Shown piece after piece: positions 132 through 7,338 of a stretch of 25,985 nt of DNA. The notes below the pieces were generated by a model. The model was not told the DNA's origin and did not search any database. It was given only the letters and a program-made list of their open reading frames with translations. How positions within the stretch are numbered: the stretch's first letter is position 1; each line of letters begins with the position of its first letter. Origin of the DNA: Nitriliruptoraceae bacterium (GTDB lineage Bacteria; Actinomycetota; Nitriliruptoria; Nitriliruptorales; Nitriliruptoraceae); the NCBI GenBank assembly GCA_046545715.1, contig JBKGZF010000001.1, positions 1 to 25,985 of the forward strand, read 5' to 3'. The translations under genes and the position numbers were made by a program.

Positions 132-1847
132 TCAGCCGGTGGTGACCTCCTCGGCGACCTGGTCGCGCAGGTCGCGCTTGAGGATCTTGCCGACCGGGTT
201 GCGGGGTAGCTGCTCGACGATCTCGAGGCGCTCGGGAAGCTTGTAGGAGGCCACCTGCTGCTCACGCAGGTGGTCGACGAGCTCAGCGAGCGTCGGTGGC
301 TCGTCACCCGCGGGCACGACCACCACGCACGTGCGCTCACCCAGCTCCTGGTCCGGCAGTCCGATCGCGGCCACCTCGGCGACCTTCGGGTGGGAGAGCA
401 CGAGCCCCTCGACCTCAGCCGGCGAGATGTTGTAGCCGCCACGCACGATCAGGTCCTTGGCGCGATCGACGAACCGCAGCAACGTGAGCTCGCCCGCGTC
501 GTCCGGCACGATCTCGAAGACATCGCCGGTGCGCAGATAGCCCTGGTCGTCGAAGGCCTGCAGGCCCTGCTCCTCGGCACGCCAGTAGCCGGCGAACACC
601 GTGGGACCGGTGATCCGCAGCTCACCGGGGTAGCCGGGCTCGGTGATCTCGCGACCGGTGATGACGTCCACCAGCCGGGTGCGCGTCCCCTGGCTCACCC
701 CGTTGGGCCAGGACAGCCCCTCAGCACCGAACCACGGGAAGTACTGCGCGCGGTTGGCGGGGTCGGGCACGGTCGCGGGGTCGCCGATCAGCGCGATCCC
801 CTCGTTGGAGCCGAAGAAGTTGGTGACCTCGATGCCGTAGCGGTCCTTCCAACCCTCGACCATCCAGGTCGACAGCGGGGCCGAGCCGGAGCCGATCACC
901 TTCAGCGAGGACACATCGGCCTGCTCGAGCAGCTCCTCCTTGGCGAGCAGGAGGTTGAGCACGGCGGGCGGCGCCACGGTGTAGGTCGGCCGCTCGACGG
1001 CGATCTGCTTGAGGAAGGTGGGCAGATCGAACGGGTGGTGCATGATCAGCTGTGCGCCCGTCATCAGCCACGGCACCATCATCCCGCCGATGCCGGCCAT
1101 GTTGACCATCGGGAAGGGGTTGAGCAGCACGTCGCTGGCGTCCAGCGGCGGCGCATCGGTCGTCGCCCGGGCGATGGCCATCCAGTCCGCCGAGGTCCGC
1201 GGCACCCCCTTGGGCGCGGACTCGGTCCCCGAGGTCCAGCACAGCGTCACCGCGTCGTTGGCGTGGTGGCTCCACTCACCGACACGCTGCTGCAGCGTGG
1301 CACGATCCGGGGCGCCTTCGACATCGAGGGCGACGACCTGGTCGTGCTCCTCGGCACCGAGCGCCAGCACGGTGTGCACCGACGGCGTGCGGTCACGGAT
1401 GGCGACCAGCTCCTCGGCGTCGGCGCGCTCGCCGATTCGCGCGGCGGTGACCATGGCGACCATGCCACCGATGTCGGCGAGCTGGATGATCTCGTGCGCC
1501 CGGAACTGGACGGGGAACGGCGAGGCGATCGCGCCGATCCGCATGATGGCGAGCAATGTCGCCGGCAGCTCCACGATGTTGGGCAGCTGGACCCCGACGA
1601 CGTCGTCACGCTGGATGCCGGCGGCGAGCAGCGCCGAGGCGATCGAGTCGACGCGCGCGTCGAGGTCGCGCCAGGCCCAGCGCTTGGGCTGCCCACCGAC
1701 CAGCTCGTCGCGGTTGGGCGGGTCGGCGACGGCGAGCTCGTCGCCGCGTTCGCGGACCTGACGGTCCAGCACGTCGAGGAGGGTCTCCTGCGACCACCAG
1801 CCCGCCTCGACGTAGGCGTCGTACACGTCCTGTCCATGCAGCCTCAT
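132..1847 (-). CDS. Acyl-CoA synthetase / AMP-forming ligase (ANL superfamily), ~571 aa
   Basis: Motifs CWTSGTESAPKG (P-loop), FGSNEG, YLRTGD, RAKDLIVRGG and PRNPVGKILK. SD GAGAAGG lies 6 nt before ATG 1847 (alternative GTG 1853). Substrate cannot be assigned. Confidence 0.9.
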   Translation of the reverse strand: MRLHGQDVYDAYVEAGWWSQETLLDVLDRQVRERGDELAVADPPNRDELVGGQPKRWAWRDLDARVDSIASALLAAGIQRDDVVGVQLPNIVELPATLLAIMRIGAIASPFPVQFRAHEIIQLADIGGMVAMVTAARIGERADAEELVAIRDRTPSVHTVLALGAEEHDQVVALDVEGAPDRATLQQRVGEWSHHANDAVTLCWTSGTESAPKGVPRTSADWMAIARATTDAPPLDASDVLLNPFPMVNMAGIGGMMVPWLMTGAQLIMHHPFDLPTFLKQIAVERPTYTVAPPAVLNLLLAKEELLEQADVSSLKVIGSGSAPLSTWMVEGWKDRYGIEVTNFFGSNEGIALIGDPATVPDPANRAQYFPWFGAEGLSWPNGVSQGTRTRLVDVITGREITEPGYPGELRITGPTVFAGYWRAEEQGLQAFDDQGYLRTGDVFEIVPDDAGELTLLRFVDRAKDLIVRGGYNISPAEVEGLVLSHPKVAEVAAIGLPDQELGERTCVVVVPAGDEPPTLAELVDHLREQQVASYKLPERLEIVEQLPRNPVGKILKRDLRDQVAEEVTTG

Positions 1848-2017
1848 GCTCACCCTTCTCGATCCTCAGCCGACACCGGACCCCGTGGCGCATCGGATGA
1901 TCGGCCCCCGACCACGACGGACGGACCGTGGTCAGCGCCGCCCGGCACCTGGCCGAGACGAGGACCACCGTCTCCCTCCACCGTCGACGGACCTGCCTCC
2001 CACCATCGACGCAGGAA

Positions 2018-2036
2018 CGCTTCGTTGGGCGAAGCG
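2018..2036 (-). terminator. 7-bp hairpin downstream of the DGC/B12 operon (possible terminator or operator)
   Basis: CGCTTCG-ttggg-CGAAGCG is a perfect inverted repeat. Only TTCC follows on the minus strand, so the U-tract is weak. Confidence 0.25.
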
Positions 2037-2133
2037 CTACTGGAAGTGAAGTCAACAACCTGGCCGCGCCTAGGTCAAGCGGCGGCGCGCCCTGCTGAGC
2101 CAACCGGTCACCGACGAAGCGAGGCCCATCGGC

Positions 2134-3150
2134 TCAGGCGCGCGGCTTGGACATCCCGGCAGCGACCAGCCGGTACGCGTCCTCGTCGCTGTCGCGCACT
2201 AGGTGGGCGAGGCTCTCGAGCCCGGCCGTGAGCGCGCTTTCGGGCACGCCCCGTGCAGCGAGCAGCGGCTCGAGCCATCCGAGGAACTCGGTGTACACCG
2301 CGGGATCGTCGACCAGCCGTGCCGCCGCGAGATAGCGCACGATGTAGACCAGATCCTCACGGGTACGGGCGCGCTGGCGTTTGTCGTAGGCCTGCAGTTC
2401 CGGGAAGCGCCGCTCCAGGTCGACGAAGGCGACATCAGCCAGATCGCCCGAACGCTGATCGAGCTCCAGGGCACCCTGATCGAGCCCGACCGGCTCACCG
2501 GAGACGGTGGGCGGCGCCTCGCGCCAGGCGCGCAGGATCTCCAACGCCTCGGCGACGTCGCTTCCGTAGGCGTCGGCACCGAGCACGGCGGCCCGGGCGG
2601 GGGTCAGCGCGCGGCCACCCACGAGGACCGCGACACCTTGACGATGTGCTGCATCCACGAGACGGGCAGTGCCGAGGTAGGACAGCGCGAGGTTGCAGGT
2701 CACCGCCAGCGCGTCTGGGCGACGCCTGGCGAGGAAGGCAGCGACGTCGTCCGCCGGCGTCGAGGCCCCGAGGTAGTCCACCCCCGCACCTCGCGCGCGC
2801 AGCAGCTCGGCGAACATCTGCGAGGCCAGTGCATGCCAGTCGCCCTCCGCACAAGCGACGACGACCTGACCCTGTGGCTCGACCGGGGTGGCGGTGCTGG
2901 TGGCGAGGGCCTCGAGGGCGGCCTGGGACACGCCGGTGACCAGGTGCTCGTCGGCGGTCGTCCACTGCGCGCGCTGCCAGCGCTCACCGACCTCGTGCTG
3001 CGCCGCACCCAGCAGGTCGGTGATCAGAACTGCGGGCGGCATGCCCTCGTCGACGAGGTCGAGGACCCGGCGCACTGCGCGACGGCGGTCCCCGGCGATG
3101 GCCAGCTCGAGGTAGTGCTCGACGTCCGCGGCCGCGATCGTCGCGCTCAT
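2134..3150 (-). CDS. Photocobilin-like B12 photoreceptor: four-helix cap, Rossmann B12-binding domain and C-terminal phycobiliprotein-like globin domain; no DNA-binding domain; 338 aa
   Basis: CarH-type W-x9-EH motif (W-QRAQWTTAD-EH), base-off D/E-x-H motif (EGDWH), and VDYLGASTP. The C-terminal RTREDLVYIVRYLAAARLVDDPAVYTE...ARGVP aligns by eye to phycobiliprotein CxRDxxYYLRYxxYAxxAGDxxxLDE...LGVP. Confidence 0.8.
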   Translation of the reverse strand: MSATIAAADVEHYLELAIAGDRRRAVRRVLDLVDEGMPPAVLITDLLGAAQHEVGERWQRAQWTTADEHLVTGVSQAALEALATSTATPVEPQGQVVVACAEGDWHALASQMFAELLRARGAGVDYLGASTPADDVAAFLARRRPDALAVTCNLALSYLGTARLVDAAHRQGVAVLVGGRALTPARAAVLGADAYGSDVAEALEILRAWREAPPTVSGEPVGLDQGALELDQRSGDLADVAFVDLERRFPELQAYDKRQRARTREDLVYIVRYLAAARLVDDPAVYTEFLGWLEPLLAARGVPESALTAGLESLAHLVRDSDEDAYRLVAAGMSKPRA

Positions 3151-4352
3151 CGTGCGACGATCTCGAAGCGGTGGAACGTCTCCGGTCGTGGCCGCAGCTC
3201 ACCACCCGGGATCCGCGCGTGGGAACGGCGGTGATCCTCCGAGGCCATGTAGGCCCGGAAGTCCTCCTCGCGGTTCCACCACGACACCATGACGAACTCG
3301 GTCGGGTCCTGACGGTCGGCCCAGACCTCCAGGTGCTTGAAGCCAGGCCAGCGCTCGACCAGCCGCAGGCGCTCGTCGAAGGCAGAGACGAGCTCGTCGC
3401 GACCACCTTCCGGCACCGACAGACGGCTGTGGGCAACGAACCCGCCCGTGCTCGGTCGCTCTACGACCTGCGTCGCCCGATCGGTGGTGGTCGTAGGGCG
3501 CGAGCCCGCCTCGGCCCACGCCCATCGGTCACGTCCGGCCGTCTTGGCGGCGTAGAGGGCCACATCGACCACCCGCATCACATCGTCGACCTCGCCCTCC
3601 ACCCGGGCGATCCCCGCCGAGAAGCTCACCGGCTGCGGCCGCGTGCGTTCCCAGGTCGAGCGCAGCCGCGCGAGCAGCGCCTCCGGGTCCGGCGGCGCCG
3701 GTTCGCTGCCTGGCAGCACGATCAGGAACTCCTCACCGCCGTAGCGGCCGGCGAGGTCGCGCGCCCGCACCGTGTCGGTGATCGCGCGACCGAAGGCTCT
3801 GAGCACCCGGTCTCCCTCGATGTGGCCGTGGGTGTCGTTGAGCTCCTTGAAGTGGTCGAGGTCGAGCATGACGACCACGTCCCCGCGTGTCAGACGCCCC
3901 AGGACACGCCCGAGCACCCGGCGGGTGGCAAGCCCCGAGAGCGGATCGGTCTCAGCCTCCTCGACCAGCCGCGAGGTCCGCTCGGCCAGCTCCAATGCGC
4001 GGTTGGCGTCACGGACGAACGCGGGCAGGTGGCGCGCGAGGTGCAGGTGGGCGAGGCTCACCGCCGGCGCCGCCGGCAGCACGGGCTCACCCACCCCGAA
4101 GGAGACGTCGACCGGCAAGGCGTCCTCGCCTACCTGCGCCGCGGGCGTCAACCGTCCGCCCAACGCCTTCACCAGTTCGCTGGCAACGACGCGTGCATCC
4201 TCAGGGCCGGCGATTCGCAACAGCTCGCGCGTCGCGGCCAGCACCACCTGCTCCACGGCGCCATCGCTGGCGTCCTGACGCTCGGGCTGTGCTGGCGCGT
4301 GCTCGTCCCCATCGCTGCGACTATCCGCACCGGTGGAGGAGGAGATGCGCAT
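3147..4352 (-). CDS. Diguanylate cyclase (GGEEF) with an uncharacterised N-terminal domain and a C-terminal ABM (IsdG/MhuD-like) domain, ~401 aa
   Basis: DPLSGL, MLDLDHFKELNDTHGHIEGD, RARD-LAGRY-GGEEF (I-site and A-site) and LYAAK..GRD. C-terminal FVAHSRLSV...WPGF..LEV...VMVSWWNREEDF...SH. ATG 4352 has an AGGA SD (alternative GTG 4385). The stop overlaps the next start (ATGA). Confidence 0.88.
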   Translation of the reverse strand: MRISSSTGADSRSDGDEHAPAQPERQDASDGAVEQVVLAATRELLRIAGPEDARVVASELVKALGGRLTPAAQVGEDALPVDVSFGVGEPVLPAAPAVSLAHLHLARHLPAFVRDANRALELAERTSRLVEEAETDPLSGLATRRVLGRVLGRLTRGDVVVMLDLDHFKELNDTHGHIEGDRVLRAFGRAITDTVRARDLAGRYGGEEFLIVLPGSEPAPPDPEALLARLRSTWERTRPQPVSFSAGIARVEGEVDDVMRVVDVALYAAKTAGRDRWAWAEAGSRPTTTTDRATQVVERPSTGGFVAHSRLSVPEGGRDELVSAFDERLRLVERWPGFKHLEVWADRQDPTEFVMVSWWNREEDFRAYMASEDHRRSHARIPGGELRPRPETFHRFEIVAR

Positions 4353-4458
4353 CCGGGTCCTGACGACCTCTGACGGTCGAGCCACGCCATGGCGGCGAGA
4401 CCGTCAGGGTACCGCCGGTGGGATGCGTGCACCGGGGCGTCCACCCCTCGGCCGCGAC

Positions 4459-5303
4459 TCAGTGATTGGACCTGGAGGGCCCACCCGGGTCGGACTGCAG
4501 CCAGGGACCGCCACGCAGCCTTGCCAGCCAGGGAACCGGGGCTTCGTCGGCCTCCTCGGCTCCGCTGGGGCGCATGAGCGAGCGTCGGTAGTCGCGGTTG
4601 AGCTGGCCGATCACGTCAAGCCCGATGTCGGCCGGGCAGGCCGGCACGCATTCGCCCATGCTGGTGCACGAACCGAACGACGCTTCCATCGTGCGCACCA
4701 TGGAGCGGACCCGGTCGTAGCGCTCGATCTGTCCCTGCGGGAGGGTGGCGAGGTGGGCCACCTTCGCGCCGGTGAACAGCTGCGCCGCAGCGTTCGGACA
4801 GGCGGCGACACAGGCTCCGCAGCCGATGCATGCCGCATGGTCCATGGCGGCCTCGGCCTCGCGCTTGCTCACCGGGTGGGTGTGCGCCTCGGGTGCCGCG
4901 TTGGTCGCGGTGGAGACGAACCCACCCGAGGCGATGATCCGATCCAGCGCGGAGCGATCGACGACGAGGTCCCGGACGACGGGGAACGCCCGCGCACGGA
5001 ACGGTTCGAGCGTGACGACGTCACCGTCGTCGAAGCTGCGCACCCGCTGCAGGCAGGCGGGCGTGGTGTCCACCGGCCCGTGAGGACGGCCGTTGACCAT
5101 CACCCCGCACGACCCGCAGATCCCCTCCCGACAGTCATGGTCGAAGGCGACCGGCTCACGTCCCTCGGCGACCAGCCGTGCGTTGAGCATGTCGAGCAGC
5201 TCGAGCACGCTCGTCTGGGGTTCGACCTCGTCGACCTCGTAGCGTTCGAACCCACCGGGCTCCTGCGGGGCGGATTGCCGCCAGACCAGCAGCGTCAGGC
5301 GCA

Positions 5304-5304
<1 letters not shown>
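4459..5304 (-). CDS. sdhB: Succinate dehydrogenase/fumarate reductase iron-sulfur subunit, ~281 aa
   Basis: CREGICGSC...C (2Fe-2S), CIGCGACVAAC (4Fe-4S) and CTSMGECVPAC (3Fe-4S). ATG 5304 overlaps the sdhA stop (TGATG). Confidence 0.93.
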
Positions 5305-7256
<1,952 letters not shown>

Positions 7257-7338
7257 CGTGGCTCCTGTCGGCCGTCCGGGACCCTGCACCGGCGGCATCG
7301 TCCGGCCCGGCTGCGGAGCAGCCGGGCCGGACCACCGG

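What the first reader, a model, noticed from the sequence alone, without database searches (positions are those of the whole stretch)
3150..3446. ABM domain keeps three of four IsdG/MhuD heme-site residues but has Asn7 replaced by Ser
Seen: FVAHSRLSV aligns with IsdG FMAENRLTL. FDER, VSWW and RRSH match the MhuD Arg26, Trp66 and His75 positions by eye. Known: Asn7 is needed for IsdG catalysis, and these enzymes mainly yield staphylobilin or mycobilin. Inference: the domain may be a heme sensor, carrier or dimerisation module rather than an oxygenase. ABM domains dimerise, and cyclases need dimerisation.
Basis: partly seen in the sequence, partly recalled or inferred. Interest (0 to 1): 0.6.

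Follow-up and report, generated by a model that had tools for sequence, protein, structure and literature searches.

The report
Ser-type heme-oxygenase-like domain of photocobilin operons
The tail of this c-di-GMP cyclase is a real heme-oxygenase-like (IsdG/MhuD-type) domain that has lost two of the three catalytic-triad residues, not one. It belongs to an unstudied branch of that family that travels with vitamin-B12/bilin light sensors, so it may be how those sensors get or sense their tetrapyrrole.

Summary
The ABM domain is real. It spans window 3150-3440 on the minus strand, residues 316-412 of the 412-aa GGDEF protein (Pfam E 8e-14). Among solved structures it sits with IsdG, IsdI, MhuD, HmoB and TT1380, not with quinol- or polyketide-type ABMs.

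Asn7 to Ser (S320) is correct, and Arg26 (R339) and the axial His (H389) are kept. The Trp of VSWW (W370) is the structural Trp (MhuD W57). The catalytic Trp66/67 aligns with Tyr379. So the N/W/H triad reads S/Y/H.

This pattern is fixed across about 150 homologues, which form one Ser-type clade separate from canonical NWH enzymes. The same genome also has a canonical MhuD-like paralogue.

The domain follows photocobilin genes rather than cyclases. In 45 of 60 non-redundant metagenome loci it lies next to a photocobilin, either standalone or fused. Here the photocobilin gene (2134-3150) overlaps the cyclase stop codon by ATGA.

Most likely it is a heme-binding accessory that makes or hands over the bilin for the photocobilin. 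A heme-sensor role is a close rival. Nothing was tested biochemically.

The scan has flagged this operon type before on other DNA.

The parts
3147..4385 (-). Gene for the 412-aa cyclase: N-terminal module, GGDEF domain, linker and ABM domain (P0001). The true start may lie downstream of 4385, because homologues are about 380 aa.
   Evidence: ORF list and translation. Pfam GGDEF 2.8e-29 and ABM 8.1e-14. 67 full-length homologues at 42-65% identity.
3150..3440 (-). Ser-type IsdG/MhuD-like ABM domain, residues 316-412. [quoted passage not shown]
   Evidence: Pfam. PDB sequence and profile searches. AlphaFold model at pLDDT 93. Foldseek hits to ABM folds including IsdI and IsdG.
3426..3428 (-). 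Ser320 codon, at the position of the catalytic Asn7 of IsdG and MhuD.
   Evidence: Alignments. Ser in 65/67 fusions, invariant in the 87-row alignment, 61/61 in metagenome copies.
3369..3371 (-). Arg339 codon, equivalent to MhuD Arg26.
   Evidence: Equal-length (presumably ungapped) profile alignment to MhuD. 66/67, invariant, 61/61.
3276..3278 (-). Trp370 codon. This is the structural Trp (MhuD W57, LFO1 W91), not the catalytic Trp.
   Evidence: PMC5557675 for LFO1 W91. Invariant.
3249..3251 (-). Tyr379 codon, at the position of the heme-ruffling Trp66 (MhuD, IsdI) or Trp67 (IsdG).
   Evidence: The IsdI W66Y entry 4fnh outscores wild type. 65/67 Tyr. In metagenome copies: Tyr 50, Trp 7, His 4.
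3219..3233 (-). The His385-Arg-Arg-Ser-His389 helix segment. His389 is at the axial-ligand position (IsdG His77, MhuD His75).
   Evidence: Alignments with TT1380 and HmoB. His389 65/67 and His385 62/67. His389 58/61 and His385 54/61.
3441..3515 (-). Low-complexity, poorly conserved linker (residues 291-315) between the GGDEF and ABM domains.
   Evidence: Full-length model has pLDDT below 50 for residues 300-312. No consensus residues in the family alignment across this stretch.
3525..3956 (-). GGDEF diguanylate cyclase domain (residues 144-287) with an intact GGEEF motif (216-220) and an RxxD site (207-210).
   Evidence: Pfam and NCBIfam. Motifs read in the translation. R207, G216, G217 and F220 invariant.
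3957..4283 (-). N-terminal module (residues about 35-143) with no Pfam match. It is a small alpha/beta domain plus a long helix leading into the GGDEF domain.
   Evidence: No Pfam hit. Model. The same module is fused to photocobilins or to other proteins in other loci.
2134..3150 (-). Stand-alone photocobilin gene (B12-binding_2, B12-binding and a bilin-binding photoglobin domain; P0002). Its ATG overlaps the cyclase stop codon (ATGA at 3147-3150).
   Evidence: Pfam. PDB 8j2y (AbDPcob photocobilin domain) E 1.2e-80 and 8j2x/8j2w (SasPcob) about 1.5e-48. Overlap read.

Best explanation
**What is shown**
- Residues 316-412 form an independently folding ABM domain of a distinct Ser-type clade within the IsdG/MhuD heme-degrading branch.
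- It is a mobile accessory of photocobilin (B12 plus bilin) light-sensor operons, not a cyclase-specific part.
- In this gene it is tied to the cyclase C-terminus by a disordered linker. The cyclase gene is translationally coupled to a stand-alone photocobilin gene.

**What is inferred**
- The domain dimerises like other ABM domains and binds heme through His389, with Arg339 near a propionate.
- Ser320 and Tyr379 replace the Asn and Trp that distort heme in IsdG-type enzymes. The heme would therefore sit flatter, in a more polar pocket.

**Most likely role (inferred from context)**
- It converts heme into the linear tetrapyrrole needed by the photoglobin domain of the neighbouring photocobilin. 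It may hold and hand over that pigment inside the complex.
- This is the job the canonical heme oxygenase does in bphO-bphP operons and in HO-photoglobin fusions.
- A slow, roughly stoichiometric enzyme would suffice.
- The light-activated photocobilin would then control the cyclase, probably through the cyclase's N-terminal module.
For: **Clade membership**
- The profile of 87 homologues hits only IsdG-family structures at the top: TT1380 4e-15, HmoB 6e-13, MhuD 4e-10, IsdI 6e-8, IsdG 9e-7.
- One tree split (support 0.935) separates 70 of 71 Ser-type sequences from all 20 canonical N/W-type sequences.

**Site under selection**
- Ser, Arg, Tyr and His are near-invariant.

**Association with photocobilin**
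- The neighbour gene is a photocobilin.
- 45 of 60 non-redundant metagenome loci holding this ABM type have a photocobilin within 1.6 kb. All gene orders and fusion states occur: cyclase-ABM then Pcob; cyclase, ABM, Pcob; ABM then Pcob; ABM then cyclase-Pcob fusion; Pcob then ABM.
- The same holds in related genomes.
- Close homologues of the characterised AbDPcob (E 4e-106 and 3e-100 to 8j2y) have this ABM gene directly upstream.
- In two genomes the ABM gene is followed by a small protein that matches the photoglobin domain (hhalign probability 76%, E 2e-5).

**Precedents**
- Photoglobin fused to canonical heme oxygenase, with 'ABM monooxygenase' noted in photoglobin operons (PMC8717448).
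- Bilin reductases clustered with photocobilin-like proteins (PMC13446030).

**Genome content**
- No canonical heme oxygenase (PF01126) was found in any of the 6 genomes carrying the Ser-type ABM. Five of them are at least 95% complete.
- A canonical MhuD-like paralogue with Asn is present separately, so the Ser-type copy is a specialised extra.

**Residual activity is plausible**
- IsdI W66Y binds heme via His76 and keeps about 30% of the wild-type rate, with spectra like classic heme oxygenases (PMC3464526).
- AbDPcob bound biliverdin poorly in vitro, about 20% occupancy (PMC10979010). This leaves room for a missing partner or a different native bilin.
Against: - No biochemistry exists for any member of the clade. 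Heme binding itself is inferred.
- The family-defining Asn and Trp are both missing. Lojek et al. counted only NWH-bearing sequences as IsdG-like (PMC5557675).
- IsdG-type enzymes normally give staphylobilin or mycobilin, not biliverdin.
- The domain is not needed by photocobilins in general. Only 4 of 26 photocobilin-like loci in a 401-genome phylum sample have it within 1.5 kb.
- 12 of 19 photocobilin genomes without it also lack PF01126, so the distribution is not cleanly complementary.
- Two photocobilin-adjacent copies have lost both His residues (L088, L089).
- Sister sequences sit at the N-terminus of PAS histidine kinases, a position typical of sensor domains.
Confidence: 0.42

Rival explanations
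1. **Heme (or heme-bound O2/NO/CO/redox) sensor.** The domain binds heme stably through His389 without degrading it. It feeds a second input, alongside light, into the cyclase/photocobilin complex. The Asn-to-Ser and Trp-to-Tyr changes exist to stop turnover.
For: - Two of the three catalytic-triad residues are replaced.
- The wider Ser-type clade includes ABM-PAS-HisKA-HATPase kinases, ABM-PAS proteins, an ABM-GGDEF and an EAL-ABM.
- Heme-binding ABM proteins that do not degrade heme are known (PA0709 and PA3390, PMC7857532).
Against: - Strict conservation of Ser, rather than any small residue, argues for a working hydroxyl and not mere inactivation.
- The domain is usually a separate gene of about 100 codons. 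It tracks the photocobilin whatever the output.
- It is fused at either end of different outputs. Here the linker is disordered, which is a poor arrangement for allosteric control.
- An earlier scan note reports the kinase fusion inside a photocobilin operon as well. I did not test this. If true, the kinase fusions are not independent evidence for a sensor role.
Confidence: 0.3
2. **Tetrapyrrole carrier or chaperone without catalysis.** The domain binds a bilin (or heme) made elsewhere, for example by the MhuD-like paralogue, and loads it into the photoglobin domain.
For: - Photocobilin adjacency.
- A canonical MhuD-like enzyme is present in the same genomes.
- His-less copies still sit next to photocobilins, which a bilin binder could tolerate.
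- The abstract list includes a report of a MhuD structure in complex with its product (bioRxiv 10.1101/731950). I did not read that paper.
Against: - The His pair is conserved in over 90% of members. A bilin binder would not need it.
- There is no direct evidence for bilin binding.
Confidence: 0.13
3. **Ligand-free dimerisation or docking module.** It only holds two cyclase chains together, or docks the photocobilin.
For: - ABM domains are obligate dimers, and GGDEF catalysis needs two chains (established knowledge).
- Some members have lost the His residues.
Against: - The pocket residues (Ser, Arg, Tyr, two His, two further Ser, Arg391) are the most conserved part of the domain.
- About 85 stand-alone copies were found against 67 fusions.
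- Related cyclases work without it, as do cyclase-photocobilin fusions.
Confidence: 0.1
4. **Ordinary ABM enzyme.** It is either an iron-scavenging IsdG/MhuD-type heme degrader or a cofactor-less quinol/polyketide monooxygenase, fused here by accident.
For: - The Pfam family name, and source annotations such as 'heme oxygenase (mycobilin-producing)' and 'HmoA' on homologues.
Against: - The NWH triad is not met.
- A separate canonical MhuD-like gene exists.
- Quinol- and polyketide-type ABMs score at least five orders of magnitude worse.
- The fusion and the operon are conserved across many lineages.
Confidence: 0.05

Closest known systems
IsdG/IsdI (S. aureus), MhuD (M. tuberculosis), HmoB (B. 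subtilis): IsdG-family non-canonical heme oxygenases
   Same: - ABM ferredoxin-like fold.
- Best sequence and profile matches among solved structures.
- Axial His position, the Arg26 equivalent, the PGF motif and the structural Trp are all kept.
   Different: - The distal Asn is Ser and the ruffling Trp is Tyr, both fixed across the clade.
- It forms a separate clade.
- It lies in signalling and photoreceptor operons, not heme-uptake operons.
- Product and activity are unknown.
IsdI W66Y variant (PDB 4FNH/4FNI; PMC3464526)
   Same: - Tyr at the Trp66 position.
- It is a better sequence match than wild-type IsdI.
- It shows that such a site still binds heme through His, with a flatter heme and reduced but real activity.
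   Different: - It is an engineered single mutant that still has Asn6.
- The natural clade also has Ser in place of Asn.
AbDPcob and SasPcob photocobilins (Zhang et al. 2024, PMC10979010; PDB 8J2Y, 8J2W, 8J2X)
   Same: - The neighbour gene is a photocobilin (E 1e-80 to 8j2y).
- The cyclase is of the same family as the cyclase part of AbDPcob-type fusions.
   Different: - Here the cyclase and the photocobilin are separate, translationally coupled genes.
- The ABM partner is not mentioned in that paper's text or in its searchable supplements.
bphO-bphP operons and photoglobin-heme oxygenase (PF01126) fusions (PMC8717448)
   Same: - A heme-cleaving enzyme is encoded next to, or fused with, the bilin-binding photoreceptor it serves.
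   Different: - Those use the all-helical canonical HO fold, which yields biliverdin and CO.
- This is an IsdG-fold protein with an altered site.
- Its function is inferred only by position.
PA0709 and PA3390 of P. aeruginosa (PMC7857532; PDB 8ECX/8EIF)
   Same: - ABM proteins that bind heme but do not degrade it. They are a precedent for a regulatory or chaperone role.
   Different: - They are only distant ABM relatives (E about 0.1).
- They are linked to glyoxal detoxification, not to photoreceptors.

Membership tests
IsdG-family heme oxygenase (NWH type) | [quoted passage not shown] | tested here: met
   Pfam PF03992 at 8.1e-14. AlphaFold model at pLDDT 93 with that element order. Foldseek TM 0.75-0.79 to TT1380, IsdI and IsdG.
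IsdG-family heme oxygenase (NWH type) | Distal catalytic Asn (IsdG Asn7, IsdI Asn6, MhuD Asn7) | tested here: not met
   Ser320 is at that column. Ser in 65/67, invariant in the 87-row alignment, and 61/61.
IsdG-family heme oxygenase (NWH type) | Heme-ruffling Trp (IsdG Trp67, IsdI and MhuD Trp66) | tested here: not met
   Tyr379 is at that column. The W66Y mutant entry 4fnh outscores wild type. Tyr in 65/67. A minority subgroup keeps Trp (7 of 61).
IsdG-family heme oxygenase (NWH type) | Axial His ligand (IsdG His77, MhuD His75) | tested here: met
   His389 aligns with the His of TT1380 and HmoB, 10 residues after the Trp-equivalent column. 65/67 and 58/61.
IsdG-family heme oxygenase (NWH type) | Additional conserved Phe-Gly and structural Trp (LFO1 F69, G70, W91; PMC5557675) | tested here: met
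   G348, F349 and W370 are invariant in 67 homologues.
IsdG-family heme oxygenase (NWH type) | Binds heme and degrades it with an electron donor | not testable with these tools
   Needs purified protein.
Quinol/polyketide-type cofactor-less ABM monooxygenases (ActVA-Orf6, SnoaB, YgiN type) | Closest sequence relatives are of this type | tested here: not met
   With the family profile, SnoaB reaches 9e-4 and the others 3e-3 or worse. IsdG-family entries reach 4e-15 to 1e-6.
Photocobilin-operon accessory ABM (Ser-type clade defined here) | Encoded next to, or fused within, an operon holding a B12-binding plus photoglobin protein | tested here: met
   ATGA overlap with the photocobilin gene 2134-3150. 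45 of 60 non-redundant loci.
Photocobilin-operon accessory ABM (Ser-type clade defined here) | Ser / Arg / Trp / Tyr (or Trp) / His-x3-His signature, and placement in the Ser-type clade | tested here: met
   Residue typing. Tree split with support 0.935.
GGDEF diguanylate cyclase (host protein) | GG(D/E)EF active-site motif and RxxD inhibitory site | tested here: met
   GGEEF at 216-220 and RARD at 207-210 in the translation. Pfam GGDEF 2.8e-29.

The most novel reading that the evidence does not exclude
The Ser/Tyr/His ABM is an IsdG-fold heme oxygenase with altered chemistry. It makes the true native chromophore of photocobilins, either biliverdin or a different bilin, and passes it directly to the photoglobin domain. 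This would explain how HO-less actinobacteria load these sensors. It would also explain why AbDPcob bound biliverdin poorly in vitro.
Probability: 0.3. Interest if true: 0.8.

Novelty: new variant of a known kind. Interest (0 to 1): 0.55.

Why it matters
Photocobilins were described in 2024 as B12-plus-biliverdin photoreceptors with optogenetic promise. Where their bilin comes from in the native hosts has not been addressed, and one of the two characterised proteins bound biliverdin weakly.

The clade defined here is a conserved, uncharacterised, heme-oxygenase-like partner. It sits in the operons of the closest relatives of that protein.

- **If it makes or delivers the pigment:** it fills a gap in the pathway, could improve heterologous reconstitution, and would show that the IsdG fold can work with a Ser/Tyr second sphere.
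- **If it is a heme sensor instead:** it would be a new class of heme input domain for kinases and c-di-GMP enzymes.

Either answer needs only standard protein biochemistry.

Tried and rejected
- **Genome-contig scan.** I ran the search for related loci with the full-length alignment.
- **The look-up of encoding contigs.** I could not fetch the contigs of the listed homologues or of the ABM-PAS-kinase proteins. Their neighbourhood is therefore untested here.
- **Foldseek on the domain model.** It confirms the ABM fold but does not separate IsdG-type from SnoaB-type. The sequence profile was needed for that.
- **Complementary distribution with canonical heme oxygenase.** PF01126 was found in 0 of 6 Ser-ABM genomes and in 7 of 19 photocobilin genomes without the Ser-ABM. 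That is only 3 of 10 genera, the genomes are related, and 12 lack both. This is weak evidence, and I rejected it as a decisive argument.
- **'Longer' protein search with the domain.** It found only GGDEF fusions and no direct ABM-photocobilin fusion.
- **PDB sequence search with the small protein downstream of the ABM in L086.** No hit. hhalign against photoglobin domains gave moderate support only.
- **Promoter and terminator scan of 1800-4700.** Nothing found.
- **Residue-level alignment to IsdG itself.** The tools did not print it. Equivalence to IsdG Asn7, Trp67 and His77 rests on MhuD, HmoB, TT1380 and the IsdI W66Y score difference.
Full report
**1. What is at the coordinates**

The window is high-GC (about 70%). 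It comes from a 76%-complete, 432-contig genome assembly.

Positions 3150-3446 lie at the 3' end of a minus-strand ORF, 3147-4385, of 412 codons. Pfam finds a GGDEF domain at residues 144-287 (E 2.8e-29) and an ABM domain at 316-390 (E 8.1e-14, 52 bits against a cut-off of 23.1). The translation shows an intact GGEEF motif and an RxxD site.

NCBIfam gives only sub-threshold hits of the tail to heme oxygenase models: PRK13315 at 29.9 bits against 119, and HmuQ at 25.4 against 130.

The next gene downstream, 2134-3150 on the minus strand, starts with an ATG that overlaps the cyclase stop codon (ATGA). [quoted passage not shown]

Upstream are sdhB- and sdhA-like genes. Downstream is an AMP-binding ligase. 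All are on the minus strand.

**2. Checking the residue claims**

A phmmer search of the tail against PDB sequences gives these best hits:

| Protein | E-value |
|---|---|
| TT1380 | 5e-8 |
| B. subtilis HmoB | 5e-5 |
| IsdI | about 1e-3 |
| MhuD | about 1e-3 |
| IsdG | 0.16 |

In the printed alignments, Ser320 of FVAHS lies on the Asn of TT1380. It also lies on the first Asn of the HmoB 'NN' pair, the residue that is Ala in entry 4fvc.

The canonical MhuD-like paralogue of the same genome (contig C62) matches MhuD entries at E 1e-22. That search printed the MhuD sequence. Numbering it shows that Trp57 is the Trp of 'vvthW' and Trp66 is the Trp of 'afqaW'.

The family profile aligns to MhuD over equal lengths, so presumably without gaps (profile 11-78 to chain 4-71). 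This gives the following equivalences:

| MhuD residue | Residue here |
|---|---|
| Asn7 | Ser320 |
| Phe23 | Phe336 |
| Arg26 | Arg339 |
| Trp57 | Trp370 |
| Trp66 | Tyr379 |

His389 lies 10 residues after Tyr379, as His77 does after Trp67 in IsdG. It aligns with the His of TT1380 and HmoB.

An independent check comes from the IsdI W66Y mutant entry (4fnh, title). It outscores wild-type IsdI (2zdp) with the single sequence (22.5 vs 20.2 bits) and with the profile (36.0 vs 32.4 bits).

The VSWW Trp is the structural Trp that Lojek et al. call W91 in LFO1 (PMC5557675). The catalytic Trp is a Tyr. The N/W/H triad that defines the family (PMC5557675, PMC4835899, PMC6018153) reads S/Y/H here.

**3. 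Is it selected?**

Sixty-six GGDEF-ABM homologues at 42-65% identity, aligned with this protein (67 rows), keep the key residues as follows:

| Residue | Conservation |
|---|---|
| Ser320 | 65/67 |
| Arg339 | 66/67 |
| Trp370 | 67/67 |
| Tyr379 | 65/67 |
| His385 | 62/67 |
| His389 | 65/67 |

A search with the domain alone found 85 stand-alone proteins of about 100-140 aa. An 87-row alignment was built from most of these, four stand-alone copies from related genomes and this domain. In it, Ser, Arg, Trp370, Tyr, Ser382, Ser388 and Arg391 are invariant. Both His residues are at least 90% conserved.

In 61 metagenome copies, Ser is 61/61. The Trp66 column is Tyr 50, Trp 7 and His 4. His389 is 58/61.

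**4. Which kind of ABM?**

The 87-row profile hits only IsdG-family structures at the top (TT1380 4e-15 down to IsdG about 1e-6). SnoaB and other cofactor-less oxygenases reach 9e-4 or worse.

The AlphaFold model (pLDDT 93) has the expected fold. Foldseek confirms an ABM fold but does not discriminate subtypes.

A profile search of 1.84 billion representatives gives 927 clusters at E 1e-3 or better and 221 at 1e-10 or better. Residue typing of the best 150 shows an S/Y/H core followed by an S/W/H group. In a FastTree of 99 domains, one split (support 0.935) puts 70 of 71 Ser-type sequences apart from all 20 canonical N/W-type sequences.

In a 401-genome sample of the phylum, the profile separates two groups with a wide score gap:
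- Six genomes have Ser-type copies at 112-160 bits.
- About 100 genomes have N/R/W/W/F/H MhuD-like copies at 67 bits or less.
- One stand-alone S/W copy scores 67.5 bits.

Five of the six genomes with the Ser-type copy, this one included, also have a second, lower-scoring match, which in this genome is a canonical MhuD-like copy. The tally of 104/401 and the typing of locus L215 include four genomes flagged as unpublished (G018, G239, G318, G082). No specific claim rests on them.

**5. Context**

The neighbour protein matches the AbDPcob photocobilin domain (8j2y) at E 1.2e-80 and SasPcob (8j2x/8j2w) at about 1.5e-48 over its full length. It is a stand-alone photocobilin (Zhang et al. 2024, PMC10979010).

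*Related genomes*
- One has cyclase, stand-alone Ser-ABM and photocobilin as three consecutive genes.
- Two have ABM followed by photocobilin.
- Two have the ABM beside a B12-binding protein. There the ABM is followed by a small protein that matches photoglobin domains (hhalign probability 76%, E 2e-5).

*Metagenome scan*

A scan with the domain alignment returned 78 loci, 60 of them non-redundant. Forty-five have a photocobilin within 1.6 kb. The arrangements seen are:
- cyclase-ABM fusion then photocobilin
- cyclase, ABM, photocobilin
- ABM then photocobilin
- ABM then cyclase-photocobilin fusion
- cyclase, photocobilin, ABM
- N-terminal module fused to photocobilin, then ABM

Most exceptions are cut by contig ends. 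The one clear exception with 5 kb on both sides (L179) has also lost both His residues.

The cyclase-photocobilin fusions in L164 and L194 match 8j2y at 4e-106 and 3e-100, and have the ABM gene directly upstream. AbDPcob has the same cyclase-CBD-BBD domain order (PMC11796333).

*Limits of the association*
- Only 4 of 26 photocobilin-like loci in the phylum sample have the ABM within 1.5 kb.
- Canonical heme oxygenase (PF01126) was found in none of the six Ser-ABM genomes.
- It was found in 7 of 19 photocobilin genomes lacking the ABM. That is suggestive but not clean.

**6. Wider clade**

Ten representatives were scanned with Pfam:
- Three are ABM-PAS-HisKA-HATPase kinases.
- Four are ABM-PAS proteins.
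- One is an ABM-GGDEF.
- One is an EAL-ABM (S/Y type).

JGI names some of these 'signal transduction histidine kinase/heme-degrading monooxygenase HmoA'.

So the Ser-type domain is a signalling-associated module. An earlier scan note reports such a kinase inside a photocobilin operon. That is a lead I did not test.

**7. Architecture of this protein**

The full-length model (pLDDT 88.5) shows, in order:
- a small N-terminal alpha/beta module
- a long helix leading into the GGDEF domain
- a linker with pLDDT below 50 (residues 300-312)
- the ABM domain

The linker is unconserved in the family. This looks like a tether created by fusing neighbouring genes, not a rigid allosteric coupling.

The N-terminal module has no Pfam match. 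Elsewhere it is fused directly to photocobilins or to other proteins. That makes it a candidate contact point for the photocobilin.

**8. Literature**

- IsdI W66Y binds heme through His76, holds it flatter, and has spectra like classic heme oxygenases. Its rate is 0.020 per min against 0.066 for wild type (PMC3464526).
- Asn7 is critical in IsdG, and MhuD N7A has decreased activity (PMC6018153).
- PA0709 and PA3390 bind heme without degrading it (PMC7857532).
- The photocobilin paper and its searchable supplements do not mention an ABM or a heme oxygenase.
- The photoglobin paper lists 'ABM monooxygenase' and heme oxygenase among operon neighbours in one sentence. It also shows photoglobin fused to PF01126 (PMC8717448).
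- Pre-2 bilin reductases cluster with photocobilin-like proteins (PMC13446030).
- No paper in the library links IsdG-type domains with diguanylate cyclases.

**9. Interpretation**

*Shown*
- This is a distinct Ser-type clade of IsdG-like ABM domains with an S/Y/H site under strong selection.
- It is tied by gene order and gene fusion to photocobilin signalling operons.

*Inferred*
- The domain binds heme through His389.

*Most likely role (about 0.4)*
- It makes or hands over the bilin for the photoglobin domain.
- It occupies the operon slot that canonical heme oxygenase fills next to other bilin photoreceptors.
- A slow enzyme would be enough for stoichiometric loading.

*Close rival (about 0.3)*
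- It is a non-degrading heme sensor that adds a second input.

*Less likely*
- A pure dimerisation role for the cyclase is unlikely, because the domain follows the photocobilin and not the cyclase.
- An ordinary iron-scavenging role is unlikely, because a canonical paralogue exists.

**10. Novelty and prior notes**

The operon type has been flagged by this scan in at least six other genomes. The ABM neighbour was noted in passing in 2022.

What is added here:
- the corrected site (S/Y/H, not S/W/H)
- the definition of a separate Ser-type clade
- its quantified linkage to photocobilins
- its fusions to other signalling outputs

This is a new variant of a known kind. It has no experimental characterisation and there is a clear set of tests.

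Noticed in passing
window 3957-4283 (-), residues about 35-143 of P0001: This N-terminal module has no Pfam match. It is a small alpha/beta domain plus a long helix. In other loci the same module is fused directly to photocobilins without a GGDEF domain (L143, L168, L172). It also forms the C-terminal part of larger proteins next to photocobilins (L088 627 aa, L129, L153, L173). It may be the adaptor that couples outputs to the photocobilin.
   Followed up: partly
L093:6184-6600 (-) (own genome, contig C62): This is a canonical MhuD-like paralogue with Asn, both Trp residues and His, matching MhuD at E 1e-22. It carries a Gly/His-rich insertion of repeated GHG(E/G) units before the last strand, which MhuD lacks.
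   Followed up: partly
L088:7993-8328 (+) and L089:7092-7919 (+): Two related genomes of one genus have Ser-type ABM genes directly upstream of photocobilins. Both conserved His residues are replaced (Phe and Ala, or Phe and Ser). Two other genomes of the same genus have the photocobilin but no adjacent ABM. This may reflect decay of the partner in that lineage.
   Followed up: partly
L179 (metagenome contig Ga0182013_10000769) and L180: This cyclase-ABM fusion has no photocobilin within 5 kb on either side. Its ABM has lost both His residues, Ser382, Ser388 and Arg391, but keeps Ser320, Arg339, Trp370 and Tyr379.
   Followed up: no
L091:7416-8822 and L092 (genomes G311, G145): This is a split arrangement. 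A B12-binding protein without a photoglobin domain is encoded divergently. The Ser-ABM gene is followed, about 27 nt later, by a helical protein of about 117 aa. That protein matches photoglobin domains by hhalign (probability 76%).
   Followed up: partly
G190:C89:18378-19373 (L095): This is the closest photocobilin homologue in the phylum sample (64% identity to P0002). It has one in-frame TGA and no ABM within 1.5 kb. The same genome has a second photocobilin in a cyclase, ABM, photocobilin operon.
   Followed up: no
L140:300-1361 and L141:380-1568: In these loci the B12-binding part and the photoglobin part of the photocobilin lie in separate consecutive reading frames downstream of the ABM. 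This could be a true gene split or a frameshift.
   Followed up: no
window 4459-7298 (-): sdhA- and sdhB-like genes lie directly upstream on the same strand, only 73 nt from the cyclase ORF. No promoter-like or terminator-like site was found between 1800 and 4700, so co-transcription cannot be excluded.
   Followed up: no
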